Shown here one piece after another: positions 46,929 through 61,497 of a DNA stretch of 64,000 nucleotides. The DNA is taken from IMG/VR virus record IMGVR_UViG_3300035670_000065, positions 47,993-111,992 of that record; one strand, written 5' to 3'. The notes beneath the pieces are model-generated. The model did not search any database. It saw only the letters and a program-made list of their open reading frames with translations, and had not been told where the DNA came from. Source of the DNA: a virus. The number at the start of each line of letters is the position of its first letter. The stretch's first letter is position 1. The translations under genes were made by a program, and so were the position numbers.

Positions 46929-47003
46929 GCTCCGGAAGCTTAACGGTCAAGCGATGTCCTCATAAGACAGGGAAAGCTGGTTCAACTCCAGTCCGGAGCA
47001 CCA
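46929..47003 (+). tRNA. tRNA-Met/Ile2(CAT)
   Basis: Loop CTCATAA, CCA. Confidence 0.88.
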
Positions 47004-50488: not shown

Positions 50489-51067
50489 ATGGAACCTAGA
50501 TCTAGCTACTACTACGATGGCAAAGTTTTCCGCCTTAGAAGCAAATGGAACAAAAGATTCAGATTATTTTTAATGTTAGTATGTTTTCTAGGATTAAGTG
50601 GATATTCTAAGGATATTTCTGATGGTGAAGTAGTACCACAGAAACACGCTTTAGAGTCTCACGTTCTAGAAGAAAATCCCAAAGTATCAATCAACGACGC
50701 AAAGAGTATAGTTAACGCAGTTATTAAATGGGGGACTGAGTTTAGTATCGACCCTAAATTGTTACTAGCTATAGCTAAAGTGGAAAGTAACTATAACAAA
50801 CACGCTATATCGCCTTCTGGTGCTTATGGACTAATGCAGGTTATTCCTGTGTGGCATAAAGATAAGATTAAGAAGGCTAAAGAAGAACTTGGAAATCCTG
50901 AGGTCTTCGATATTCACACTAATATATATCTAGGTGCTAGTGTGCTTAGAGAGTGTTATAACAAGAACCCTGGACTCAGTAAGGCGCTTTTGTGTTATGC
51001 TGGCCAAACGCCAGGGTATGATAAGAAAGTGTTAGCAGCATATAGGGCTTTAAAAATATTCACTTGA
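50489..51067 (+). CDS. Lytic transglycosylase (SLT domain) with a signal/TM segment
   Basis: LLAIAKVESNY...AIS.SGAYGLMQV...NIYLG...Y. Confidence 0.88.
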   Translation: MEPRSSYYYDGKVFRLRSKWNKRFRLFLMLVCFLGLSGYSKDISDGEVVPQKHALESHVLEENPKVSINDAKSIVNAVIKWGTEFSIDPKLLLAIAKVESNYNKHAISPSGAYGLMQVIPVWHKDKIKKAKEELGNPEVFDIHTNIYLGASVLRECYNKNPGLSKALLCYAGQTPGYDKKVLAAYRALKIFT

Positions 51068-51429
51068 TTTTTCTTTTTGTTCCGTGTATAATATTATTTA
51101 TCAACTGGAGAAAACATCATGGCAGGGTATAGTAAAGAATTGATTGTAGGTGCTTACCTACACAAGTTCATTCATTCCGGTCTAGTGGATATTGATACTC
51201 TTGTGGTTTTAGAAGATAATGCTAATCGCTTCTACGATAAGGTAGGTAAAGATGAATTCAGAAAATACGCCGATGTTACACCCGATAGAATTAGAGAATT
51301 CCGGTGTAGTGTATAGATTTGTATATTCTGACGGATTCTCTAGACTTCGGACATTTCCTTCAGACGAAGAAGCTAGATGGTTTGCTCATAACGAAGGAGA
51401 CCATCTAATGACATATATTAAGATTTAAT

Positions 51430-51503
51430 TGCGGGTTTGTGGCGGCACGACTAGAGTCTCATAAGCTCATAGGAAGGGAGTTCGACTCTCCTGCCCGCAA
51501 CCA
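51430..51503 (+). tRNA. tRNA-Met(CAT), possibly initiator-like, short D-arm
   Basis: Loop CTCATAA, acceptor TGCGGGT/GCCCGCA, CCA. Confidence 0.75.
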
Positions 51504-51505
51504 GT

Positions 51506-51581
51506 TGGCAAGTAGCTCAGTGGTAGTAGCCGTGCACTGTTAATGCACTGGTCGTAGGTTCGATCCCTACCTTGCCAGCCA
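51506..51581 (+). tRNA. tRNA-Asn(GTT)
   Basis: Loop CTGTTAA, CCA. Confidence 0.92.
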
Positions 51582-51744
51582 CCAAATTAAAGCGGATACT
51601 AAAGATGTATGACGTTCTGCCTCCACAGACCCCAAACGATCATACCTCCCAACTAAGAGGGAAACAACGTTCCTTGGACAAGGTTACCAACTATCGGTGT
51701 AAAAAGTCTTAGTCTGCTTTAATTTGTAAACTAAAGTACTTTGT

Positions 51745-51820
51745 CTAGGTATATTGTCAGCCTGGCCAGACGGCCGCCCTTGGAAGGCGGAGGACGGTGG
51801 TTCAAATCCACCTACCTAGA
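51745..51820 (+). tRNA. tRNA-Pro(TGG), no encoded CCA
   Basis: CCGCC-CTTGGAA-GGCGG, T-loop TTCAAAT. Confidence 0.8.
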
Positions 51821-51834
51821 CAAAGTACTTTTAA

Positions 51835-51910
51835 GGGGGATGATTGAGCTGAAGTTCTTGGATGCTTTGCAAGCATTTGCCGCAGGGTTTGATTCCCTGA
51901 TCCTCCACCA
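51835..51910 (+). tRNA. tRNA-Ala(TGC), atypical D-arm
   Basis: Loop TTTGCAA, G3-U70 pair, CCA. Confidence 0.8.
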
Positions 51911-51964
51911 CCAACAACACCCGTCACACTTCCTGCATAGCATAGTGCTCCAACGATGGGTTAT

Positions 51965-52040
51965 CCCGTTCAAGCTAATCTGGTGAAAGCGACTGGTTGA
52001 AGCCCAGTAGAGCGAAGCTCGAAACTTCGGAACGGGGCCA
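51965..52040 (+). tRNA. tRNA-Phe(GAA)
   Basis: ACTGG-TTGAAGC-CCAGT, CCA. Confidence 0.85.
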
Positions 52041-52047
52041 GAACAAC

Positions 52048-52132
52048 TACGGTGTCGCATAGCGGCGATTGCAGCAGCCTCCAAATCTGTCGGAGAAATC
52101 CCCCGGGGGTTCGAGTCCCTCCACCGTAGCCA
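52048..52132 (+). tRNA. tRNA-Trp(CCA) with a long variable arm
   Basis: Loop CTCCAAA; GGA-GAAA-TCC variable stem; CCA. Confidence 0.8.
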
Positions 52133-52142
52133 ACAAATTTTG

Positions 52143-52315
52143 TTAAATTAACTGTTGCGTAGTAATGCGTTACTTCACATACTATGAGCCTATAGATCCC
52201 GCAATTGAAGGGGATTTCTGGGGTTAGAAGATGACGAAGCTAACCCGACATTTGTCCGTTGCGCACGTCCGTAAGGCGGCAAAGAACGTACTACGACCTT
52301 TCTCAGTTAATTTAA
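52143..52315 (+). ncRNA. Y-RNA-like RNA 1
   Basis: Terminal stem TTAAATTAACTG/CAGTTAATTTAA, GTTGCG...TTACTTC, CTTTCT loop; upstream of Ro60. Confidence 0.75.
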
Positions 52316-52426
52316 TTAAGTTTGTTGCGTAAGTATAGAGATACTTCATGGATGAAAATTTGACTTCTAATCAAAACTTGTGGGTTCAAACCCCACTTTC
52401 TCTATCTAACTATTCTCAAACTTAAT
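52315..52426 (+). ncRNA. Y-RNA-like RNA 2 (anticodon-arm plus T-arm cargo)
   Basis: ATTAAGTTTG/CAAACTTAAT stem, GTTGCG...AGAGATACTTC, TTTGA-CTTCTAA-TCAAA and GTGGG-TTCAAAC-CCCAC. Confidence 0.78.
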
Positions 52427-52432
52427 AGTATT

Positions 52433-52521
52433 TTATTGCTGCGATATAAAGAGTTACTTCCTGCCAGCTTTACTAGGATAATCGAGGGATTACCCGAACT
52501 CTCTATAATTTTTCTCAATAA
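52433..52521 (+). ncRNA. Y-RNA-like RNA 3
   Basis: TTATTG/CAATAA stem, GCTGCG...AGAGTTACTTC...AACTCT...TTCTC. Confidence 0.7.
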
Positions 52522-52528
52522 CCCTAAT

Positions 52529-52598
52529 TTTTTCGTTGCGTTTTATACAGTTACTTCATTTAGCGGAAATAAACACTGTATATACCCTTTCTCGGAAA
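52529..52598 (+). ncRNA. Y-RNA-like RNA 4 (minimal)
   Basis: GTTGCG-TATACAG-TTACTTC...CTGTATA...CTTTCTC, ends 9 nt before the Ro60 ATG. Confidence 0.7.
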
Positions 52599-52607
52599 CC
52601 CTAAAAA

Positions 52608-54173
52608 ATGTCAAGACTAAATCAAAAAATTACACAACCTCAAGTTGAAATCGCTGTGTCTGCTAATGGAAACGTACAAGTTGCCAAAAGTGCAGCCCAG
52701 GTTTTCTTCGAGACCCTAGTGGGTCATATGTACGGAAAAGATCGCTTCTATACCTCTAACGAGGATATTTGTAAGCGTCTTAGCGTAGATATTAGCAAAC
52801 TGGTACGGGCTGGAAAGTCCGACTACGTTGCTAATGTAATTCTGTATGCTCGTGAACAGGCAATGATGCGGTCTATGCCTATTCTGGCTACAGTCTATTT
52901 TGCCAAAGCACTTCGTGAAACCGGAGTTGCCTTTCCACAACTGCGTCGTCTGGTATCTTCGGTCATCCAACGAGCTGATCAGATTACTGACACCTACGCA
53001 GTCGCCCTGGAGGTTTTCGGTGGAAAAAACAAAGTGCCGATGGCTCTCAAGCGTGGTGTAGCGGACGCAATGAACAAGTTTACCGAATACCATTTCGGTA
53101 AATATAACCGTGCAGCCGGTGTCACATTCAAAGATGTGGTGCGTATCGTACATCCAGAACCAAAGGATGAGAACCAAAGCGTCGTGTTCAAGAAAATTCT
53201 TGAAGATAACCTCGCTGTGCCATATACATGGGAAACTGAACTCTCCATGAACGGTCAACTTCCGAAAGAAGTTCAAAAGTCAAAGGCTCAAATTTGGGCT
53301 GAGCTCGTTAAATCCGGCAAACTCGGATATATGGCACTACTTCGCAACCTTCGTAACATTATTCAGTCAGGAGCTGACGTTACGGATGAGGTGGCGAAAC
53401 GGATTTCTGATCCAGAACAAGTCTCGCGTTCTAAGCAGCTTCCCTTCTCGTTCATCAAGGCTTTTGATGCCGTTAAGGATGCTCCCACTCAGTTGAAATG
53501 GGCGGTTAGTGAAGCTCTTGATGCATCCTGCGCGAATATTCCTTCGCTAGGTAAGAACGTGTGGATCATTGTCGATGGTTCCGGCTCTATGCTGGGTGGG
53601 CAGATGTACAGGGCTGCCCCTCTGTATGAGACGCTTGGAGATTCCCCGTTCCAGACCGCTGCCGTGTTCTGCGCGGCTCTGGTGAAATCTAGTAAGGAAG
53701 CGACTAATATCGCGGTTTCCATCTTTAGCGACAACGCTCAGATGGTTGATCTTAATCCTCGTGATACAGCTACGTCCATCGTGGACAAGCTCACGAAGAT
53801 GGTACAGGGTGGTGGAACTAATCTACAGGCAGCCCTGAATCTAAAATCCAAGCTAGGTTTCGAGCCAGATACAGTAGTAATCCTTTCAGACATGGAAGTA
53901 AACTCCTTGTCGACTGGGGATTCCAGCTATCGTGGTTATACTTATAACCATTACCGCGATTCTACTGTAGCAAACATCGCTAAGATGTTTGATAAGACCA
54001 CTCAAAAAGTGGCGGTAAACCTAGCTAGTGGTGTGTCGACACCTGTTCCAAAAGAACATGGATTTATCCAACTGGCAGGATTTAGTGAGCGAATCTTCGC
54101 CCTACTTCCTGAACTGCGGAATAGTGAGAAAACAGTCGAAAGATTGTTTAGTCAGCCGTTCCAGCCAGTTTAA
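52608..54173 (+). CDS. rsr: Ro60/Rsr-like TROVE plus vWA RNA-binding protein
   Basis: YARE...MRSMP, IQRAD, YHFGKYN, HPEP, YTWETELS, LGYMALLRNLRNI, SKQLPF; vWA MIDAS VDGSGSM, GGGTNL, ILSDM. Confidence 0.92.
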   Translation: MSRLNQKITQPQVEIAVSANGNVQVAKSAAQVFFETLVGHMYGKDRFYTSNEDICKRLSVDISKLVRAGKSDYVANVILYAREQAMMRSMPILATVYFAKALRETGVAFPQLRRLVSSVIQRADQITDTYAVALEVFGGKNKVPMALKRGVADAMNKFTEYHFGKYNRAAGVTFKDVVRIVHPEPKDENQSVVFKKILEDNLAVPYTWETELSMNGQLPKEVQKSKAQIWAELVKSGKLGYMALLRNLRNIIQSGADVTDEVAKRISDPEQVSRSKQLPFSFIKAFDAVKDAPTQLKWAVSEALDASCANIPSLGKNVWIIVDGSGSMLGGQMYRAAPLYETLGDSPFQTAAVFCAALVKSSKEATNIAVSIFSDNAQMVDLNPRDTATSIVDKLTKMVQGGGTNLQAALNLKSKLGFEPDTVVILSDMEVNSLSTGDSSYRGYTYNHYRDSTVANIAKMFDKTTQKVAVNLASGVSTPVPKEHGFIQLAGFSERIFALLPELRNSEKTVERLFSQPFQPV

Positions 54174-54178
54174 GACTT

Positions 54179-54212
54179 AAGGGCGCGTTAGCAATAACGT
54201 GCCCTTTTTCTT
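54179..54212 (+). terminator. Intrinsic terminator after Ro60
   Basis: AAGGGCGCGTTA-GCAA-TAACGTGCCCTT plus T-tract. Confidence 0.8.
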
Positions 54213-54279
54213 TCTTGATTTCATTCGGTTAAAGGCGTATAATATCTTTATTGAGTGAGATTTGGAAAGAGAATATAAA

Positions 54280-54735
54280 GTGAATATATTTATACTTGAT
54301 AACGATGTAGAGCAATCTGCTAAGTATCACTGTGATCAGCACGTTAATAAAATGATCCTAGAGGCGGCGCAAATTATATGCACGGTACGTGCATTAAAAG
54401 GCGCGAAAGACAGTCCGTATAAAGCTACTCATCCTAAGCATCCTTGCACTATTTGGGCAGGTAGAACGCTAAAGAATTACTTGTATGTTCTAGATTATGC
54501 CCACTATCTTAATGAAGAAGCTAAGTCTAGGTACAAGAAGAAAGTTAATCACAAGTCGTGGGACGTTCTACAAGAACTAACATTCCCTGACTTTGATCTG
54601 ATAGAGCGAACTGAATTCGCTAGAGCAATGCCGGAACAATTTAAGCGTATTCCAGATACAGTAGAAGCGTATCGTGAATACTACAAGACAAAAGAATTCG
54701 CAACTTGGAAAACAGGAAAACCCGAATGGCTTTAA
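54280..54735 (+). CDS. Pyrimidine-dimer DNA glycosylase (DenV-related) family protein
   Basis: NIFILD...A.YHCDQHVNKMILEAAQ...YKATH.KHPC..W...AYREYY. Confidence 0.75.
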   Translation: MNIFILDNDVEQSAKYHCDQHVNKMILEAAQIICTVRALKGAKDSPYKATHPKHPCTIWAGRTLKNYLYVLDYAHYLNEEAKSRYKKKVNHKSWDVLQELTFPDFDLIERTEFARAMPEQFKRIPDTVEAYREYYKTKEFATWKTGKPEWL

Positions 54736-55023
54736 TGACCCTAGAGTTTCAGCTAAATGGTGGTAAGAAGATTAACCTTACCTATCAGGAAGCGGAACTA
54801 ATGTATAAAGATTTGCAACGTATTTTTGGACAGCCTCAGGTACACTTTAGACCACCTACAGTCCCCGATAGTTATCCAAGAGGATACCCTAAAGAAGTCC
54901 CGGGGACTTGGTGTGGTAGTAATCCAGTAGATAATGCCGTAGCACATACAGCAGCACCTGGAGTACATTATAGGGATAACCATTTTCAAACACAAAAAGA
55001 AGCATTAGCAGAGATTAGGTTAA

Positions 55024-55809
55024 ATGGCGAAGCGCACTAATATTGAGGAACTTCCAGGGTTTCACTATCTAGTACATGGTCGACACGGTGTATTTCTAGC
55101 TAATAAGAATGATATATATGTAGGTGGGGCACTTATCACTTATGGTGAGTTTAGCGAGTTAGAGACGGACACTTTTAAGCGTTTCGTAGATAAAGAAACC
55201 ACAGTAATTGAGATTGGTGCTAATATTGGTGCACACACTGTATGGTTGGCTAAGAATGCTAAACGAGTAATTGCTATTGAGCCTCAACCTTTCATTTTCT
55301 ATACTCTATGTTCTCAAATTGCATTAAATAGCTTACAGAATGTAGAATGTATTAACTCCTGTGTAGGATTTAGTGGAAATGGATTTATTGATATTCCTAG
55401 TCTTGATTATTCTAAGCCAAATAATTTTGGTGGATTGGAAATGTCTGCTCCTTCGGATGAGCGAGTTCGTGTCCGATGTGAAACACTCGATGAGATTGTT
55501 CAATCCAGAAATATAACTGGAAAAGTATTTCTTAAAGTAGATGTAGAGGGAATGGAGGAGCAGGTATTGCGTAGTGGAGCACATTTCATTAGAGATATGC
55601 AACCTGTTATGTATGTAGAAAATGACCGACCAGAAAAATCAGAAGGTCTAGTCTCTTATATTAAGAGCATGGGTTATAAGCTAGAAAGAGACGCTCCTAC
55701 ACTATTTAATCCTAATAACTTCTTTAAGAAGAAAGATAATAAGTTCGTTAATGCACAAGGTAATGCTTTTGCCAGCTTTAACGAAATATGTACCCCAATT
55801 CTGGTGTAG
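55024..55809 (+). CDS. FkbM-family methyltransferase
   Basis: IEIGANIGAH, IEPQ, LKVDVEGME, YVENDR. Confidence 0.88.
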   Translation: MAKRTNIEELPGFHYLVHGRHGVFLANKNDIYVGGALITYGEFSELETDTFKRFVDKETTVIEIGANIGAHTVWLAKNAKRVIAIEPQPFIFYTLCSQIALNSLQNVECINSCVGFSGNGFIDIPSLDYSKPNNFGGLEMSAPSDERVRVRCETLDEIVQSRNITGKVFLKVDVEGMEEQVLRSGAHFIRDMQPVMYVENDRPEKSEGLVSYIKSMGYKLERDAPTLFNPNNFFKKKDNKFVNAQGNAFASFNEICTPILV

Positions 55810-55874
55810 CTCAGCGGTAGAGCAGTGTCTTGATAAGGCATTGGCCACTGGTTCAATCCCAGTCACCAGAACCA
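55800..55874 (+). tRNA. tRNA-Ile(GAT)
   Basis: Loop TTGATAA, CCA. Confidence 0.9.
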
Positions 55875-55879
55875 AACAT

Positions 55880-55968
55880 GGAAGGTTATCTAGCCGGGGA
55901 AGCTAGCCTAGTCTTGAAAACTAGTGGAGCCGCAAGGCCAGGAGTTCGATTCTGCCATCCTTCCGCCA
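55880..55968 (+). tRNA. tRNA-Ser(TGA)
   Basis: Loop CTTGAAA, long variable arm, GCCA end. Confidence 0.85.
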
Positions 55969-56126
55969 AATACTATGAAAACAATATTAATAGTATTATT
56001 TTTGACTGGATGCGTTATACACGTTCCAGTCTACTTCAAAGATGATTCTGGTAAGTGTCACGCTGTGACACCAGAGGGAGTTATGTTTGACGTAGATTGT
56101 GACTTTATACCTAAAAGGAGGTAATC

Positions 56127-56690
56127 ATGTCCCTAGTACTCGGTTTAGACCAAGCCGGTACTCCCCATAGTTGGTTAGATATTGAACACGCAGCCATGCA
56201 CTACGCTAAAGGCCATGTTGCATGGGAGGCTGGAAACAGTTTTGTTACGCTGCACGGGGGTACTAACGCTAGAACCCAAAAGCGTTCTGAACTAAATATC
56301 AATTCAATTATATCGGTAAATGGCGATGATTACTTTAGTAAGAACTATAATTCAACGATATCAATTAGCCGTCGAATGCTCTTTAAGAGAGATAGACATA
56401 TGTGTGCTTACTGTGGAACGGTTTTTCACGATAAATCGTTAGAACTGGAACACGTTATCCCTAAGTCTAAGGGGGGTGCTACAAGCTGGACTAACATAGT
56501 TAGTGCTTGCCGTACTTGCAATGCCAGGAAAGATGATAGAACTCCTGAGCAGGCACATATGCAGTTACTATATGTACCGTATACTCCTAATAGGCATGAG
56601 GCGTTTATTTTAGCAAATCGTAACATCCTAGTAGATCAGATGGCATTTCTACTACAGGGTGTCCCAAAACATTCAAGACTTTTGACATAG
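56127..56690 (+). CDS. HNH endonuclease (bacterial-type)
   Basis: LFKRDRHMCAYCG...EHVIPKSKGG..SWTNIVSACRTCNARK..RTPEQA. Confidence 0.88.
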   Translation: MSLVLGLDQAGTPHSWLDIEHAAMHYAKGHVAWEAGNSFVTLHGGTNARTQKRSELNINSIISVNGDDYFSKNYNSTISISRRMLFKRDRHMCAYCGTVFHDKSLELEHVIPKSKGGATSWTNIVSACRTCNARKDDRTPEQAHMQLLYVPYTPNRHEAFILANRNILVDQMAFLLQGVPKHSRLLT

Positions 56691-56766
56691 GCCAGGTTGA
56701 TCCGAGAGGTTAGGTGACATCCTTACAAGATGTATTATACTGGTTCGAGTCCAGTACCTGGTACCA
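56691..56766 (+). tRNA. tRNA-Val(TAC)
   Basis: Loop CTTACAA, CCA. Confidence 0.9.
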
Positions 56767-56777
56767 TATATATATAT

Positions 56778-57392
56778 ATGAATATACTAGAATTTCTAAA
56801 GTTAGCATTTCTATCCTCAGGGTATAAAATACCTAAAAATACTAAGGGAATTAGTGAGGAAATACTGCTGGAGTTTATAGCCCACGGTATGTCGGTTAGA
56901 AGCGGTGGACTAGGGTATACTTCCGCGGGCGGTATTAATAAGTTTCTAAAGAAATGCTTCCCTGATAAATCTTCCAGTATTTCCTATAGATCATTCCTGC
57001 TAGGAAAAATACGACATAAATTATGTACAAAATGTTTAGTAGTAAAACCTTTTGAAGACTACCATATAAATGGTAGTAATATAGATGGTATAGCTGACTA
57101 TTGTAAAATATGTCAATGCTCTACTAGAAAGGACTACTATAAGAATAATTCTTCTAAAGAGATTACTAATAATAGTGTAAGGGATGGGAGGTTACGCATG
57201 TTGCAAACTCCAAAGTGGGCCGATAATACGAAATTGGCAAAATTCTACAGAGATTGTCCCGAAGGATACCATGTGGACCACATTATACCTTTAAATGGTA
57301 TACTAGTTAGTGGGTTAAATGTACATAATAATTTGCAGTATCTGACAGCCAGAGAAAACCTTTCAAAAAGTAATAAATATACTATAGAATAA
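56778..57392 (+). CDS. HNH homing endonuclease (paralogue of 19021-19662)
   Basis: HVDHIIPLNG.LVSGL....NLQYLTA.ENLSKSN. Confidence 0.85.
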   Translation: MNILEFLKLAFLSSGYKIPKNTKGISEEILLEFIAHGMSVRSGGLGYTSAGGINKFLKKCFPDKSSSISYRSFLLGKIRHKLCTKCLVVKPFEDYHINGSNIDGIADYCKICQCSTRKDYYKNNSSKEITNNSVRDGRLRMLQTPKWADNTKLAKFYRDCPEGYHVDHIIPLNGILVSGLNVHNNLQYLTARENLSKSNKYTIE

Positions 57393-57397
57393 ACAAT

Positions 57398-57471
57398 AGC
57401 TCAGTAGTGTAACGGCAACACCCCGCTCTTTGACAGCGGTATTTCTGGTTCAAATCCAGACTGGGCCACCA
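57398..57471 (+). tRNA. tRNA-Gln(TTG)
   Basis: CCGCT-CTTTGAC-AGCGG, CCA. Confidence 0.88.
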
Positions 57472-57477
57472 AACAAC

Positions 57478-57552
57478 AATGCCGTGGCCGAGAGTATAGG
57501 CAAACGTCTGCAAAACGTTTTCACGTCAGTTAGAATCTGACCGGCATGTCCA
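57478..57552 (+). tRNA. tRNA-Cys(GCA)
   Basis: Loop CTGCAAA, U73, CCA. Confidence 0.85.
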
Positions 57553-57557
57553 AATTT

Positions 57558-57693
57558 AGTTGCTGCGTATAAAAGAGTTACTTCACACTTGTAATGTCGT
57601 GGTCGGTGGTTCGAATCCACCCCGAAGCCGAAAGCTAAGGTAGCTCAGCTGGATAGAGCACGTAACGTCACTCTTTTAGATCCCTTCCCAACT
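57558..57693 (+). ncRNA. Y-RNA-like RNA 5 (YrlA-type permuted tRNA domain)
   Basis: AGTTG/CAACT ends, GCTGCG...AAAAGAGTTACTTC; T-arm GGTGG-TTCGAAT-CCACC precedes D-arm TAGCTCAGCTGGATAGAGC. Confidence 0.82.
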
Positions 57694-57696
57694 TTT

Positions 57697-57772
57697 GGCT
57701 CGTTCGTATAATGGTATATTACGGCGGATTGTCTATCCGTTCATAACAGTTCGATTCTGTTACGAGTCGCCA
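57697..57772 (+). tRNA. tRNA-Asp(GTC)
   Basis: Loop TTGTCTA, GCCA end. Confidence 0.9.
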
Positions 57773-57778
57773 AACAAT

Positions 57779-57852
57779 GCGTGCATAGTTTAGAGGTAAA
57801 ATCATTGGCTTCCACCCAATAGTCCTCGGTTCGATCCCGAGTGCCCGCACCA
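57779..57852 (+). tRNA. tRNA-Gly(TCC)
   Basis: Loop CTTCCAC, CCA. Confidence 0.9.
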
Positions 57853-57919
57853 GTTACAAAATTTTAATCTTGACCCTAAAGCTAAAACGGCTTATAATAT
57901 ATCTTTAAGTGAGAGAACA

Positions 57920-58087
57920 ATGACCGCGAAGATAATAGAATTTGACCCTAAACCGCAGAAACCTCAGAAGTGTTCGTTCTGTGGCACGTCTAAAAGTAAA
58001 GCCACTAGAATGATACAATCCTCAACCGGAAAGTGTATCTGTGATAAGTGTCTAGCTAAAGTAAAGGCATTATCTGATGCGAATTGA
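57920..58087 (+). CDS. Stand-alone ClpX-type C4 zinc finger, 55 aa
   Basis: MTAKIIEFDPKPQKPQKCSFCGTSKSKATRMIQSSTGKCICDKCLAKVKALSDAN; first gene after promoter 57870. Confidence 0.7.
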   Translation: MTAKIIEFDPKPQKPQKCSFCGTSKSKATRMIQSSTGKCICDKCLAKVKALSDAN

Positions 58088-59162
58088 AGACCCTAAGCTG
58101 TATCCGCTAGAAGCCTTTTTAGATTGGATTCCAGATGCGGGAATCAGTATTACAAAAGAAGTACTAACAAACATTGCCACGTTTTTTAACCTGGGCGGAG
58201 TTATCTGCGAAACCCATGACGAAGTTGTAGATTGTTTAGAATACTTGCGTAAGTGGTACAATATCATAGAACTAGAAGCAAATAATCACGAACTAATACT
58301 AAGGAAAGCAAATGGCCTCTAAATCACGCTCAGCCCATCAAGGCAACCTGTACAAGTCCTACAAAGCTGCAAACCGTTACGAAACTAACCGTAAGCGTAA
58401 GCTGACTCGTCTTGCCAAAGAGCAACCAAACAACGAGCAGATCGCTCAAGCAATGAAGAACATTCATTACCGCCGTAAGACTCCTAAGGCTGCACAGTGG
58501 TCTAAACAGGAGAAGGCTTGGGCACAGATGAAGAAGGACTTCTCTAAGCCGAACTTTGGTTCTCAGCGTAAGATGACTGAGAAAGAGATGTTCAAGCTGC
58601 GTGCGCGAGCGCACGACGGTGAAGGGAATTCGGTGTGGAATTTTTAATCGGATATGCCTTATTTGCCCTAACTACAGCACTCACGTCAGCAATATTACTA
58701 ATGAGGCCAGTCCTTAAAGACTTAGAGCGTGAGGAGCCACTAAACACTATGATCGAGTATAAGTTCATTACTTATCTGACTTTCGGGGTTATCTCCATTC
58801 TAGTGGCTCCTATTATGTTTCTAGCTTGCATTGTGCCAGACAAAAATAACACATTTCGAGATACCCTAGCCAAATCACTGCGAGACTAAAATGAAAATCA
58901 TGTCCTTCACCTATACTAAAGCTAATGGTAATAAGAGTTTCCGTACTGTCGCGGCTCTGTCTGAGCCAAGTGAGAATGTTTTTGGAATTGATATTACTGA
59001 GTTGGAAGATGAGCGTCAAGGACAGTTTCTCTACGAATTGGAAATGTTAGTAGAGAAGCGTAAGATGGAAATGGAAAAGCTGATGGCAGACTTTGATATT
59101 AAGTCTAATTACCGTAGCTTTAAGCCAAGCGGCATGAGCGATATTCATGTAGATGTATAATT

Positions 59163-59254
59163 GGAAGGTTCCCATAATTGGTATTGGAGCGGTTTGCTAA
59201 ACCGTCGGTCTGCTAACCACAGGCTTGTGGGTTCGAGTCCCACACCTTCCGCCA
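59163..59254 (+). tRNA. tRNA-Ser(GCT)
   Basis: Loop TTGCTAA, long variable arm, GCCA end. Confidence 0.92.
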
Positions 59255-59900
59255 CTAAGGAGATTGTTATGCGAATGTAGATAACTTTACAGGAGTATAA
59301 TATGTCTAGAACTTTTAGAAAACAGCCATACACCTGGCGTAGTACAGATCCTTTGTTTGACTGGACGTGTTGCGAGGACGAGGTAGTATGGGAAGATGTA
59401 GAATATGCTTTTATTAACAGAGACTTTGGTCAGTGGTCACGTTACACTTACTATACTGTTAAGTACAAAGCAGATAGCAAAACAGGGAAGAGACTGTTAG
59501 CGCGTAGCAAGATGGACAAGGTTATTACCTTCAAAGAGCCAGGACCCTCGTGGTTTCGTAACCTTTTTGAAGAGCGTCCTCTGCGTCGTAATAGCAAACG
59601 TGAACTTCAGAAGTTCATGTACGATGAAGGCTACGAACCTATCATAGATTCTATCCCGCGCAAAAAGATTTACTGGACATGAACAGCTACACTCGATAAC
59701 CGATAAGAAGCCGGAGTTTCCGGAACTACTGGTGGAAGGCCGAGGAAGTAGGGCTGGCGTTGATTCAATCTCATTCATGTTCATCCTATTCAAGCTAGAA
59801 CAAAACGAGAACGGGATGCGAACCCTAGATATCGACAAAACTAGCCCCTGTCGCAAGGGAACGGTGGACTACCCTGATAAAGTGGCTGCCGTGAAACTAA

Positions 59901-60125
59901 TTCGGTGATGGCAAAGTAAAAGTATTCAAGACACGGGTTCGACTCCCGTCATTTCCAAGACTACGGGAATGTAACGGCTTCGATTGGGTATGACTAGCAA
60001 TGCCGGAGAATCGTCAGCTAAGACGTAAAAACAACGCATAATAAATGCAAACGATGAAAGATATAGCCTAGCTGCTTAAGTTAGGCGAAGGTTTCGGGAC
60101 TGTCCCTTCTTACCAATACAGTCCC
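59901..60125 (+). ncRNA. ssrA: Circularly permuted (two-piece) tmRNA, tag ANDERYSLAA
   Basis: T-arm plus 3' acceptor CATTTCC-A (59950-59957) precede 5' acceptor GGGAATG (59965-59971; G3-U70); tag ORF 60047-60079; 5' boundary approximate. Confidence 0.88.
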
Positions 60126-60513
60126 ATTTTGTTACTATCTTACTCGCCACTTAAGCTAATATATGCGGAGTTTCGTCGACAATAACCTTCCGCGGGTAAT
60201 CAGGAGCACCTGACTTGGGTAGGGTAGTATCAAAATATAAACGGAGTAAATATGGAAAAACTATTAGAGAAGTATGTTGAAAACGAAACTAAAATAGCTA
60301 CCATTAATGGACTCCTAATTGCAGAAGCAATGTGTGCTAGGAAGCTCCAAGAAGTTTACAGTAGAGATATTTTAGATATTATGGGCGACATTGCCGCAGC
60401 TATAGAGGACATTAAAAATGCTTAAGAAATTACTGAAATGGATTGTCACGTTAGAAAGTCCATCTCACAAAAGATTTGCAGAACTAATGTTTCTGACTAA
60501 AAAATAAACTAAT

Positions 60514-60588
60514 GCTACGCTAGCTCAGAGGTAGAGCTCTCGCCTTGTAAGCGAGGGGTCGTCTGTTCGATTCAGACGCGTAGCACCA
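60514..60588 (+). tRNA. tRNA-Thr(TGT)
   Basis: Loop CTTGTAA, CCA. Confidence 0.92.
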
Positions 60589-60589
60589 T

Positions 60590-60665
60590 ATCCCATGAAG
60601 TGTAATGAATTTGCACGCGACGCTACGGACGTTGAAGAACGGTTTGATTCCGGCATGGGGTGCCA
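60590..60665 (+). tRNA. tRNA-Arg(ACG), atypical 8-bp acceptor and short T-stem
   Basis: CGACG-CTACGGA-CGTTG; ATCCCATG/CATGGGGT; CCA. Confidence 0.75.
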
Positions 60666-60671
60666 AACAAC

Positions 60672-60745
60672 GGGGGTAAAGCTTTAAGGTGAAGCAACTG
60701 GCTTTTAACCAGTAGAAGAAGGGCCACTACCTTCTACCCCTACCA
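60672..60745 (+). tRNA. tRNA-Lys(TTT) with a non-canonical T-loop
   Basis: ACTGG-CTTTTAA-CCAGT; T-arm GAAGG-GCCACTA-CCTTC; CCA. Confidence 0.82.
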
Positions 60746-60836
60746 AGATTAGGTAACTGACTCCCGTACAGAGTTGGTGAGGCGCAGAGGACTGCAAGTA
60801 CAGCCAACGGGTTCGAATCCCGTCCTATTAAACAAC

Positions 60837-60912
60837 GCGTGCTTAGCTCAGCTGGTAGAGCGGAACGTTGCCAACGTTCAGGTCGCAGGTTCGAACCCTG
60901 TAGCCCGCGCCA
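60837..60912 (+). tRNA. tRNA-Gly(GCC)
   Basis: Loop TTGCCAA, CCA. Confidence 0.92.
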
Positions 60913-60918
60913 AGTTTA

Positions 60919-61022
60919 ATACGTTGCGTTGTTTAGAGATACTTCATAGGTTCGAATCCCATACCCGGGGCCACTATCCCGGGTCGCCGTTGGTGGCACA
61001 CTCTAACAAATTTTCCTCGTAT
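60919..61022 (+). ncRNA. Y-RNA-like RNA 6 (YrlA-type)
   Basis: ATACG/CGTAT ends, GTTGCG...AGAGATACTTC, T-loop GGTTCGAATCC, closed acceptor CCCGGG/CCCGGG, D-like arm GCC-GTTGGT-GGC. Confidence 0.8.
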
Positions 61023-61029
61023 ATTTAAC

Positions 61030-61497
61030 ATGAAAATACTATTTCTAGATATTGATGGAGTATTAAATAATACTGCCACGTTTATTCACAATAGGCAGAT
61101 GCAAAAGAAGTACGTTGGTTACTCTCATCGTCATTTTGATGAGATAGACCCTAAATTGCTAGCACTTGTAAGACACATATGTGAAGAAACTGGTGCAAAG
61201 ATAGTAATTAGCTCCAGTTGGAGAATTCTTCATACAATGGGTCAAATAATAGAAGTGTTTGAAGCCCAGGGCTGGAAGAACCCACCAGTTATTGATATGA
61301 CTGGACGTTCTGATAATGGATTCAGAGGGCAGGAAGTATACAATTGGATAGAAGGTTGCGAATCCTTAACTGGATATGCTATCCTAGATGACGATGGAGA
61401 CTTCTTTCCTAATCAGCCTTTGTTTAGAACAGATACTAGAATTGGTCTGACTTTCCCAATTGCTGAAGAAGTAATAAAGCATCTACGGTGTTGCTAG
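61030..61497 (+). CDS. HAD-domain protein of the Swiss-Army-knife RNA-repair type
   Basis: ILFLDIDGVLN, IVISSSWR, RGQEV..W, YAILDD, GLT. Confidence 0.82.
   Translation: MKILFLDIDGVLNNTATFIHNRQMQKKYVGYSHRHFDEIDPKLLALVRHICEETGAKIVISSSWRILHTMGQIIEVFEAQGWKNPPVIDMTGRSDNGFRGQEVYNWIEGCESLTGYAILDDDGDFFPNQPLFRTDTRIGLTFPIAEEVIKHLRCC

What the first reader, a model, noticed from the sequence alone, without database searches (positions are those of the whole stretch)
52143..61022. Phage Ro60 with a family of six Y-RNA-like genes: one scaffold, six different cargoes
Four units are arrayed head-to-tail directly upstream of the TROVE/vWA gene (52143-52598) and two more sit among tRNAs (57558, 60919). All share: terminal stem, G(T/C)TGCG, second stem, WTACTTC, variable insert, partner strand, pyrimidine-rich loop, terminal stem. 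The stems differ in sequence but still pair. Inserts range from ~20 nt (unit 4) to ~110 nt multi-hairpin (unit 1), anticodon+T arms (unit 2) or permuted tRNA bodies (units 5, 6). Established: bacterial Ro60 binds Y RNAs, YrlA mimics tRNA, and Y RNA can tether PNPase. Inference: a modular RNP platform in which Ro60 displays interchangeable RNA baits or adaptors, e.g. decoys for tRNA-targeting defence nucleases or tethers for RNA decay/repair enzymes. I am not aware of such an expanded repertoire in a T5-like phage.
Basis: partly seen in the sequence, partly recalled or inferred. Interest (0 to 1): 0.92.

Follow-up and report, generated by a model that had tools for sequence, protein, structure and literature searches.

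The report
Phage Ro60 with six Y RNAs
An uncultured T5-like phage encodes the ring-shaped RNA-binding protein Ro60 and six small partner ("Y") RNAs that share one docking stem but carry different second parts; the pairing is a known kind, and similar multi-RNA sets sit beside Ro60 genes in many other phages.

Summary
The composite motif GYTGCG-N10/11-TACTTC occurs exactly six times in the 112-kb genome. All six are on the Ro60 strand, and each folds as terminal stem / internal loop / second stem / variable insert.

A covariance model built from 14 short units found 243 matches in 161 Ro60-bearing loci. Every match lies on the Ro60 strand. In the 79 viral loci measured, they sit a median of about 290 nt upstream or 450 nt downstream of the gene. 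Compensatory changes are abundant.

The handle matches published YrlA features: the 5' GNCGAAN0-1G motif, the YUAY box and the Rfam YrlA stem-loop-stem layout. Unit 5 aligns with YrlA-like RNAs of other phages, including the one beside the Ro60 gene of CcrColossus. The six units are therefore Y RNAs of the YrlA/YrlB kind, although Rfam's model does not call them.

Three carry tRNA mimics: units 5 and 6 are permuted, and unit 2 is an ordinary cloverleaf. Three carry other hairpins.

Six is high but not unique. I counted up to seven per locus, and five in cultured Streptomyces phage GiJojo. Earlier notes of this scan report the same handle in arrays of 8-10 on other DNA.

The decoy/adaptor idea is untested. 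Expression and binding could not be tested.

The parts
51064..51092 (+). Sigma-70-type promoter-like site (TTGATT-17-TATAAT), the likely start of the tRNA / Y RNA / Ro60 transcription unit
   Evidence: Consensus scan. Relative L007 has the same hexamers just upstream of its first unit. Inferred, not shown.
51506..52132 (+). Four tRNA genes (Asn, Pro, Phe, Trp) directly upstream of the array, so the units lie in a tRNA operon
   Evidence: ARAGORN; Rfam tRNA.
52143..52315 (+). Unit 1: Y RNA handle (12-13 bp terminal stem) with a multi-hairpin insert of about 110 nt
   Evidence: Motif; fold z = -3.85. The insert is conserved in L135 and L007, and its start in L141 and L142. The covariance model misses it because the insert is long.
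52317..52424 (+). Unit 2: Y RNA handle whose second stem continues as the acceptor stem of an unpermuted tRNA-like cloverleaf (anticodon loop CUUCUAA, T arm, mini D arm)
   Evidence: R1 34.5 bits; ARAGORN tRNA-Arg(tct) and Rfam tRNA 42.3 bits. It is the only one of 171 units called a tRNA and is not a copy of the phage tRNA-Arg.
52433..52521 (+). Unit 3: Y RNA handle with a two-hairpin insert
   Evidence: R1 54.3 bits. Compensatory changes against L007 and L135.
52530..52598 (+). Unit 4: minimal Y RNA (YrlB-like): handle plus a 3-bp hairpin. It ends 10 nt before the Ro60 ATG.
   Evidence: R1 58.8 bits. Orthologues at L007:9919-9993 and L135:768-835.
52608..54173 (+). Ro60/Rsr orthologue (521 aa): TROVE ring plus vWA domain with a DGSGS (MIDAS-type) motif
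   Evidence: Pfam TROVE 6.4e-25 and VWA_2 2.1e-10; PHROG 850 RNA-binding protein; phiLo Ro60 structures 9KOP and 9L5Y at E 3.6e-18; invariant D323-G-S-G-S327.
54179..54206 (+). Intrinsic-terminator-like hairpin (12 bp plus a T run) closing the Ro60 unit
57558..57693 (+). Unit 5: YrlA-type Y RNA between tRNA-Cys and tRNA-Asp: handle, anticodon-arm-like hairpin (loop CUUGUAA), T arm, capped acceptor-like stem, D arm
   Evidence: R1 35.7 bits; Rfam YrlA 32 bits over model positions 19-90, below the cut-off of 69. Aligns with YrlA-like RNAs of eight other phage or metagenome loci, including CcrColossus.
60919..61022 (+). Unit 6: compact YrlA-type Y RNA right after tRNA-Gly(gcc): handle, T arm, 6-bp hairpin, 3-bp D-like arm
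   Evidence: R1 27.1 bits. The syntenic orthologue after tRNA-Gly(gcc) in L007 has compensatory changes in stem 2 and the T stem.
61030..61497 (+). HAD phosphatase of the 'Swiss Army Knife RNA repair' type, starting 8 nt after unit 6 (context only)
   Evidence: Pfam HAD_SAK_2 3.3e-25.

Best explanation
The six units are genes for bacterial-type Y RNAs, the small RNAs that dock on Ro60. The constant part is the docking handle: terminal stem, internal loop (YUGC opposite a pyrimidine run ending (A/U)CU), a second stem of about 10 bp with a conserved A.G/A.A mismatch, and the invariant UACUUC box. The variable insert is the effector part. Units 1-4 are most likely transcribed with four tRNAs and the Ro60 mRNA from one promoter to one terminator. 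Units 5 and 6 lie inside two other tRNA clusters. All six would then be cut out by the host enzymes that mature tRNAs. Each RNA then binds one phage Ro60 ring through the handle. Its insert sets what that particle meets. Three inserts are tRNA mimics, which by analogy with YrlA would draw in tRNA-handling enzymes or, as in Deinococcus, Salmonella and phage phiLo, host PNPase. Three are other hairpins. Shown here: the shared structure, its covariation, its strict linkage to Ro60 genes and its match to YrlA features. Inferred: transcription, processing, binding and every downstream function.
For: Six composite motifs, all on one strand, backwards control 0. Ro60 identity. Covariation in 14 short units: 84.5% of cells paired against 46-50% when the partner is slid, 16 of 18 pairs changed on both sides, 0 of 500 shuffles as high. 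In 132 distinct sequences: 88.4% against 39-47%, 17 of 17 pairs (on a model-fitted alignment). Model R1 gave 243 matches at E<=1 in 161 Ro60 loci, all on the Ro60 strand. In the 79 viral loci, 67 have a match, 121 upstream (median 288 nt) and 26 downstream. Of 100 loci that hold only the bare sequence pattern, five gave strong matches; four of those lie in records with a TROVE gene, and the strands agree where the loci allow a check. G-U alternates with G-C at a conserved pair (56 against 51), which fits RNA and not DNA. The Rfam YrlA consensus has the same layout, with a UGC-containing 5' loop and CUA after stem 2. Chen et al. 2014 describe GNCGAAN0-1G near the 5' end and a conserved YUAY (PMC4201824). 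Relatives read UGCGAAG. Unit 5 aligns with YrlA-like RNAs, including the one beside CcrColossus Ro60. Phage Ro60 binding two upstream Y-like RNAs and host PNPase is shown for phiLo (PMC12135203).
Against: There are no expression, end-mapping or binding data; the phage is known only from a metagenome. Rfam YrlA scores only 32 bits against a cut-off of 69, and only over the tRNA-like core of unit 5. The literal GNCGAAN0-1G is absent from all six units. Single-sequence folds of units 3-6 are no more stable than shuffles, so the case rests on comparison, not on folding energy. R1 missed unit 1, and found nothing in phiLo, whose Y-like RNAs are the ones proven to bind a phage Ro60.
Confidence: 0.85

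Rival explanations
1. Decoy or bait version: the tRNA-like inserts, with intact anticodon-type loops, are shown to host anticodon nucleases or other tRNA-directed defences. Ro60 holds the bait or hands cut RNA to decay or repair.
For: Unit 2 carries the loop CUUCUAA and unit 5 carries CUUGUAA, the same loops as the phage's tRNA-Arg(tct) and tRNA-Thr(tgt). In 23 of 57 distinct T-arm units, a hairpin with a 3-5 bp stem (5 bp in 15) and a 7-nt YU-NNN-R loop lies between the box and the T arm (shuffled 2.6 +/- 1.6, maximum 8), and NNN varies between loci. Inserts are swapped on the same handle between close relatives. A HAD 'RNA repair' phosphatase follows unit 6.
Against: The evidence is mimicry only. 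Nothing is known about the host or its defences. The genome lacks RtcB, Rnl2-type ligase and AAA_33-type (polynucleotide-kinase-like) kinase domains. Three of the six units have no tRNA-like part. An anticodon-type loop may only be needed for a tRNA-like shape.
Confidence: 0.12
2. Cis-acting leader: units 1-4 are mainly the structured 5' untranslated region of the Ro60 mRNA. Ro60 binds its own leader to limit its translation, and no free RNAs are made.
For: Unit 4 ends 10 nt before the ATG, with no promoter-like site between the array and the gene. Most matches elsewhere also lie just upstream of Ro60.
Against: Units 5 and 6 lie 3.4 and 6.7 kb downstream, past a strong terminator and inside tRNA clusters. 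26 of 147 matches elsewhere are downstream of Ro60. YrlA upstream of rsr in M. smegmatis is a discrete RNA that Rsr binds (PMC4201824). The two roles could coexist.
Confidence: 0.08
3. Decayed or rearranged tRNA genes and spacers of the tRNA operons, with no function of their own.
For: The units sit among tRNAs. Units 2, 5 and 6 contain tRNA arms. ARAGORN and Rfam call unit 2 a tRNA.
Against: The handle is not a tRNA feature. It covaries, has an invariant box (147 of 147), and in the loci searched it turned up beside Ro60 genes in all but one record.
Confidence: 0.03
4. A DNA-level repeat: an operator, recombination site or promoter element.
For: Short conserved boxes at fixed spacing.
Against: All 243 matches are on one strand. 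Compensatory changes keep the pairing, and G-U wobble occurs where the other strand would read A-C. The box spacing of 10-11 bp does not fit a sigma-70 promoter.
Confidence: 0.02

Closest known systems
Bacterial and phage YrlA/YrlB Y RNAs with Rsr (Ro60): S. Typhimurium, M. smegmatis, mycobacteriophages, CcrColossus (Chen et al. 2014, PMC4201824; Rfam RF02553)
   Same: Encoded beside Ro60 on the same strand. The 5' and 3' ends pair into stem / internal loop / stem. A conserved 5' motif and a YUAY box follow stem 2. One RNA type carries a permuted tRNA-like domain (T arm, acceptor-like hairpin, D arm), and a shorter type shares only the handle. Unit 5 aligns with the CcrColossus RNA.
   Different: Six RNAs where two were characterised per species in that work (three further ncRNAs lie near D. 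radiodurans rsr). The 5' motif reads GYUGCG(U/A)(A/U) and not GNCGAAN0-1G. The box is a longer invariant UACUUC. Rfam's model scores below its cut-off. Unit 2 is an unpermuted cloverleaf. Many tRNA-like units have an anticodon-type hairpin where YrlA has a 'variable' arm. Two units are scattered in other tRNA clusters.
Thermus phage phiLo Ro60 with Yrl1 and Yrl2 (PMC12135203; PDB 9KOP, 9L5Y)
   Same: A phage Ro60 with Y-like RNAs just upstream. Binding is proven by gel shift and cryo-EM, and a complex forms with host PNPase. The protein here matches it at E 3.6e-18.
   Different: phiLo has two RNAs with a CGAA loop motif. My handle model finds nothing there, so its RNAs belong to another handle variant.
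Deinococcus radiodurans Rsr-Yrn1-PNPase (RYPER) machine
   Same: The working model: the Y RNA docks on Ro60 with one module and tethers an effector with the other.
   Different: The Yrn1 handle keeps both strands of the animal-type helix, and its tRNA-like part is arranged differently (PMC4201824). No PNPase link could be tested here.
Animal Y RNAs (up to four per vertebrate) and nematode stem-bulge RNAs
   Same: Several paralogous RNAs share one Ro60-binding stem and differ in the loop. A pyrimidine-rich strand lies in the internal loop.
   Different: They have no tRNA-like modules, are separate polymerase III genes, and have different handle sequences.

Membership tests
Ro60/Rsr protein | TROVE (HEAT-repeat ring) domain followed by a vWA domain with a MIDAS motif | tested here: met
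   Pfam TROVE 88.7 bits, VWA_2 41.6 bits, VWA 27.5 bits. DGSGS is invariant in 11 relatives. Sequence match to phiLo Ro60 structures.
Bacterial Y RNA (YrlA/YrlB type) | Encoded within 4 kb of the Ro60 gene on the same strand (criterion of Chen et al. 2014) | tested here: met
   Units 1-4 lie 10-465 nt upstream and unit 5 lies 3.4 kb downstream, all on the + strand. Unit 6 is 6.7 kb downstream and so outside 4 kb, but it shares the handle and has a syntenic orthologue in L007.
Bacterial Y RNA (YrlA/YrlB type) | 5' and 3' ends pair into a long stem interrupted by an internal loop, supported by covariation | tested here: met
Bacterial Y RNA (YrlA/YrlB type) | GNCGAAN0-1G motif near the 5' end (proposed Rsr contact) | tested here: inconclusive
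   The literal motif is absent from all six units, which read GYUGCG(U/A)(A/U/G). It stands at the same place as gCgaAUGC of the Rfam consensus, and relatives read UGCGAAG. This looks like a variant, not an absence.
Bacterial Y RNA (YrlA/YrlB type) | Conserved YUAY after the second stem | tested here: met
   UUAC in units 1, 3, 4 and 5; AUAC in units 2 and 6. UACUUC is invariant in 147 of 147 matches. The YUAY statement is in PMC4201824.
YrlA subfamily (Rfam RF02553) | Permuted tRNA-like domain: T arm, acceptor-like hairpin, D arm | tested here: met
   Unit 5 (alignment) and unit 6. Not met by units 1, 3 and 4 (YrlB-like), nor by unit 2 (unpermuted).
YrlA subfamily (Rfam RF02553) | Score at or above Rfam's gathering cut-off (69 bits) | tested here: not met
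   The best score is 32 bits for unit 5, over model positions 19-90 only. No YrlA call in nine related loci.
Bacterial Y RNA (any type) | Physical binding to Ro60 and existence as a discrete RNA | not testable with these tools
   The genome comes from a metagenome and no transcript data are to hand.

The most novel reading that the evidence does not exclude
The Ro60 handle is a general display stand on which phages mount fast-changing tRNA mimics. These include complete anticodon arms whose triplet differs between relatives. They would act as baits, sensors or shields against host nucleases that cut tRNA anticodon loops, and the cargo swapping between close relatives would record that arms race.
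Probability: 0.12. Interest if true: 0.85.

Novelty: new variant of a known kind. Interest (0 to 1): 0.42.

Why it matters
What bacterial and phage Y RNAs do, and why they copy tRNA, is still open. This locus gives six natural variants on one handle, including a whole cloverleaf and two permuted tRNA bodies, in an operon small enough to express in a laboratory strain.

A by-product may be more useful than the locus. A model of the handle alone finds both tRNA-like and short Y RNAs, and Chen et al. 2014 say the short kind escaped their computer searches. It shows that most phage Ro60 genes examined come with several such RNAs, none annotated as a Y RNA in the cultured-phage records I read, and one overlapping a feature annotated as a tRNA.

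The locus is not a new kind of system. It is also not the largest array: this scan has already noted the same handle in larger arrays on other DNA.

Tried and rejected
- **megablast against cultured phages.** The array plus Ro60 found nothing.
- **Bare pattern search in viral contigs.** GTTGCGT-N9-TTACTTC gave 119 or more loci, almost all chance single hits. I reused 100 of them as a negative control.
- **The look-up of encoding contigs.** L135 (87%) and L007 (76%) came from the search for related loci instead.
- **Rfam at the gathering cut-off.** It calls only tRNAs and tmRNA, here and in nine related loci.
- **Sigma-70 promoter reading of the two boxes.** Rejected, because the spacing is 10-11 bp.
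- **Unit 2 as a recent copy of the phage tRNA-Arg(tct).** Rejected by alignment.
- **Phage-encoded RNA ligation repair.** No RtcB, Rnl2-type ligase or AAA_33 kinase domain was found.
- **Supplementary tables of Chen et al. 2014.** They are not held, so I could not see how many YrlA-like RNAs that study listed per phage. The review PMC10870794 is not held either.
- **Not done.** I did not fold the Ro60 protein, and I did not refine the model to capture unit 1.


Full report
**What is in the sequence**

The window is bases 47993-111992 of a 111,992-bp IMG/VR virus record. Its large terminase is 47-48% identical to those of T5-like phages of Salmonella, Escherichia and Vibrio. "Distant T5-like phage" is therefore a fair label.

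The ORF at 52608-54173 (+) has a TROVE domain and a vWA domain. It belongs to the PHROG "RNA-binding protein" family 850. It matches the solved Ro60 of Thermus phage phiLo at E 3.6e-18. It keeps the DGSGS metal-site motif that is invariant among its closest relatives. It is a Ro60/Rsr orthologue.

None of the 40 listed cultured-phage records, out of 104 that hold a Ro60 relative, is a T5-like phage, and Escherichia and Salmonella are absent from the ten commonest organism names.

**The six units**

The composite GYTGCG-N(9-12)-TACTTC occurs six times in the whole genome. All six are on the + strand, and the pattern read backwards occurs 0 times. The heptamer WTACTTC alone is not enriched.

Four units lie head to tail between tRNA-Trp and the Ro60 start (52143-52598). 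One lies between tRNA-Cys and tRNA-Asp (57558-57693). One follows tRNA-Gly(gcc) (60919-61022).

In every unit the lowest-energy or centroid fold has the same parts:
- a terminal stem whose closing pair is the first G of the motif and the last C of the pyrimidine run;
- an internal loop, YUGC opposite about 7 nt ending (A/U)CU;
- a second stem of about 10 bp;
- the UACUUC box and a variable insert.

Folding energy alone is significant only for units 1 and 2. The argument therefore rests on comparison with other loci.

**Comparison with other loci**

Two close relatives were found: L007 (Ro60 76% identical) and L135 (87%). They carry the same kind of array at the same places, with compensatory changes in both stems.

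The same composite motif also lies just upstream of Ro60 genes that are only 28-47% identical.

Fourteen short units aligned well. On the structure I wrote for them:
- 84.5% of cells pair, against 46-50% when the partner is slid;
- 16 of 18 pairs change on both sides;
- 0 of 500 shuffles reach the observed values.

**Searches with the handle model (R1)**

- In 161 Ro60-bearing loci (2.3 Mb, both strands), R1 gave 243 matches at E<=1. Every one is on the Ro60 strand.
- In the 79 viral loci, 67 have at least one match. 121 matches lie upstream (median 288 nt) and 26 downstream (median 454 nt). UACUUC is invariant in all 147, though the model favours it.
- On those 147 matches, 88.4% of cells pair against 39-47% slid, and all 17 pairs show double changes. 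One pair splits G-C 56 to G-U 51, which points to RNA of this strand. That alignment is fitted to the model.
- As a control I searched 100 loci that contain only the bare sequence pattern. Five gave strong matches. Four of those five lie in records with a TROVE gene, on the same strand where the loci allow a check. The fifth record is 64% complete.
- In the phage's own genome, R1 finds units 2-6 and nothing else (unit 5 only weakly in that screen, against 35.7 bits). It misses unit 1, whose insert is too long.

**What family it is**

The Rfam YrlA consensus has the same plan: stem, 5' loop aUGCu, stem, CUA, then the tRNA-like core, a 3' loop with ACU, and the closing stem. Chen et al. 2014 describe two conserved features. 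One is GNCGAAN0-1G near the 5' end, which they consider likely to be involved in Rsr recognition. The other is a YUAY that begins the next loop (PMC4201824).

The handle here has GYUGCG(U/A)(A/U/G) and (U/A)UAC at those places. Relatives read UGCGAAG.

Unit 5 matches the YrlA core (T arm, capped acceptor-like stem, D arm) at 32 bits, below the cut-off of 69. It aligns along its whole length with RNAs next to Ro60 in L135, L139, L142, L222, L216, L217, Streptomyces phage GiJojo, Arthrobacter phage Atuin and Caulobacter phage CcrColossus. CcrColossus is one of the phages for which Y-like RNAs were reported (PMC12135203).

The six units are therefore Y RNAs of the YrlA/YrlB kind with a handle variant that Rfam's model does not reach.

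**The cargoes**

- **Unit 1** has a multi-hairpin insert of about 110 nt. It is conserved in L135 and L007, and its beginning is conserved in L141 and L142.
- **Unit 2** is an ordinary, unpermuted cloverleaf whose acceptor stem is the handle's second stem. It is the only one of 171 units that ARAGORN calls a tRNA. It is not a copy of the phage tRNA-Arg. Its handle matches L135:651-759, which carries a different insert. Inserts are therefore exchanged on a kept handle.
- **Units 3 and 4** are short hairpin types.
- **Units 5 and 6** are permuted tRNA bodies.

Across 147 matches elsewhere, 48 have a T arm (median length 133 nt) and 99 do not (median 74 nt). Of 42 loci with two or more units, 32 have both kinds. 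This is the published YrlA-plus-YrlB pattern.

In 23 of 57 distinct T-arm units, the stretch between the box and the T arm forms a hairpin with a 3-5 bp stem (5 bp in 15) and a 7-nt YU-NNN-R loop. The stem often uses the UUC of the box. Shuffles give 2.6 +/- 1.6. The triplet differs between loci. I did not find this feature in the papers I read.

**How unusual is six?**

Within 10 kb of Ro60, the counts per locus (among the 67 viral loci with a match) were:

| Units per locus | Loci |
|---|---|
| 1 | 25 |
| 2 | 19 |
| 3 | 13 |
| 4 | 7 |
| 5 | 2 |
| 7 | 1 |

. GiJojo has five units in tandem and Atuin has four. None is annotated as a Y RNA, and one GiJojo unit overlaps a feature annotated as tRNA-Arg.

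Earlier notes of this scan report the same UACUUC handle in arrays of eight to ten on other genomes. I did not check those. Six is in the upper range but not unique.

**How it probably works**

A promoter-like site at 51064-51092 and a strong terminator-like hairpin at 54179-54206 bracket four tRNAs, units 1-4 and Ro60. Units 5 and 6 sit inside other tRNA clusters. Release by the tRNA-maturing nucleases is therefore the simplest route; this is inferred.

By analogy with the Deinococcus and Salmonella Rsr-Y RNA-PNPase complexes and with phiLo (PMC4201824; PMC12135203), each RNA would dock on Ro60 through the handle, and its insert would choose the partner or substrate.

The genome has no RtcB, no Rnl2-type ligase and no AAA_33-type (polynucleotide-kinase-like) kinase domain. 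Any repair would need host enzymes. A HAD phosphatase of the "RNA repair" type follows unit 6.

The bait or decoy idea fits the anticodon-type loops but has no direct support.

**Limits**

- There is no transcript or binding evidence.
- E-values from the quickly calibrated model are rough.
- The large alignment is model-fitted.

Noticed in passing
window 59860-60134: A permuted (two-piece) tmRNA: Rfam tmRNA_permuted 93.7 bits, tag ANDERYSLAA. The same family is also present in the Ro60-bearing loci L007, L142 and L217.
   Followed up: partly
A3 units; window 57578-57610 and 52358-52378: In 23 of 57 distinct tRNA-like Y RNAs, a hairpin with a 3-5 bp stem (5 bp in 15) and a 7-nt YU-NNN-R (anticodon-type) loop lies between the UACUUC box and the T arm. 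Shuffles give 2.6. The triplet varies (GUU x6, UGU x4, CUU, UCU, UUU and others).
   Followed up: partly
L316:2274-2888 (Streptomyces phage GiJojo, PP725410.1) and L312 (Arthrobacter phage Atuin): These cultured phages have five and four handle-model matches beside their annotated Ro-like gene. None is annotated as a Y RNA. The GiJojo unit 2744-2888 overlaps a feature annotated as tRNA-Arg(cct).
   Followed up: partly
L135:651-759 against window 52317-52424: The handle is nearly the same at the same array position in two close relatives, but the inserts differ: a two-hairpin insert in L135 and a tRNA cloverleaf in the window. This is cargo exchange on a kept handle.
   Followed up: partly
window 46929-47000, 60672-60742, 55880-55964, 51431-51499: Rfam finds tRNAs that ARAGORN missed at 46929-47000 (52.8 bits) and 60672-60742 (47.9 bits). 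There is a long-arm tRNA-like match at 55880-55964 (tRNA-Sec model, 37.5 bits, below the cut-off) and a weak tRNA-like remnant at 51431-51499.
   Followed up: no
window 61030-61497, 55024-55809, 57920-58087: Three neighbouring genes: a HAD phosphatase of the 'Swiss Army Knife RNA repair' type starting 8 nt after unit 6, an FkbM/TRM5-like methyltransferase, and a free-standing ClpX-type zinc finger of 55 aa.
   Followed up: no
window 52598-52610; L007 9990-10003; L135 835-848: No Shine-Dalgarno-like purine run precedes the Ro60 start in the window or its two close relatives. The leader is A-rich, which may hint at the host group.
   Followed up: no
L102 (IMG/VR record of 150,677 bases, 64% complete): A strong handle match (57 bits) lies in a record where no TROVE gene was found. 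Either the gene is in the missing part, or this is a handle RNA without Ro60.
   Followed up: partly
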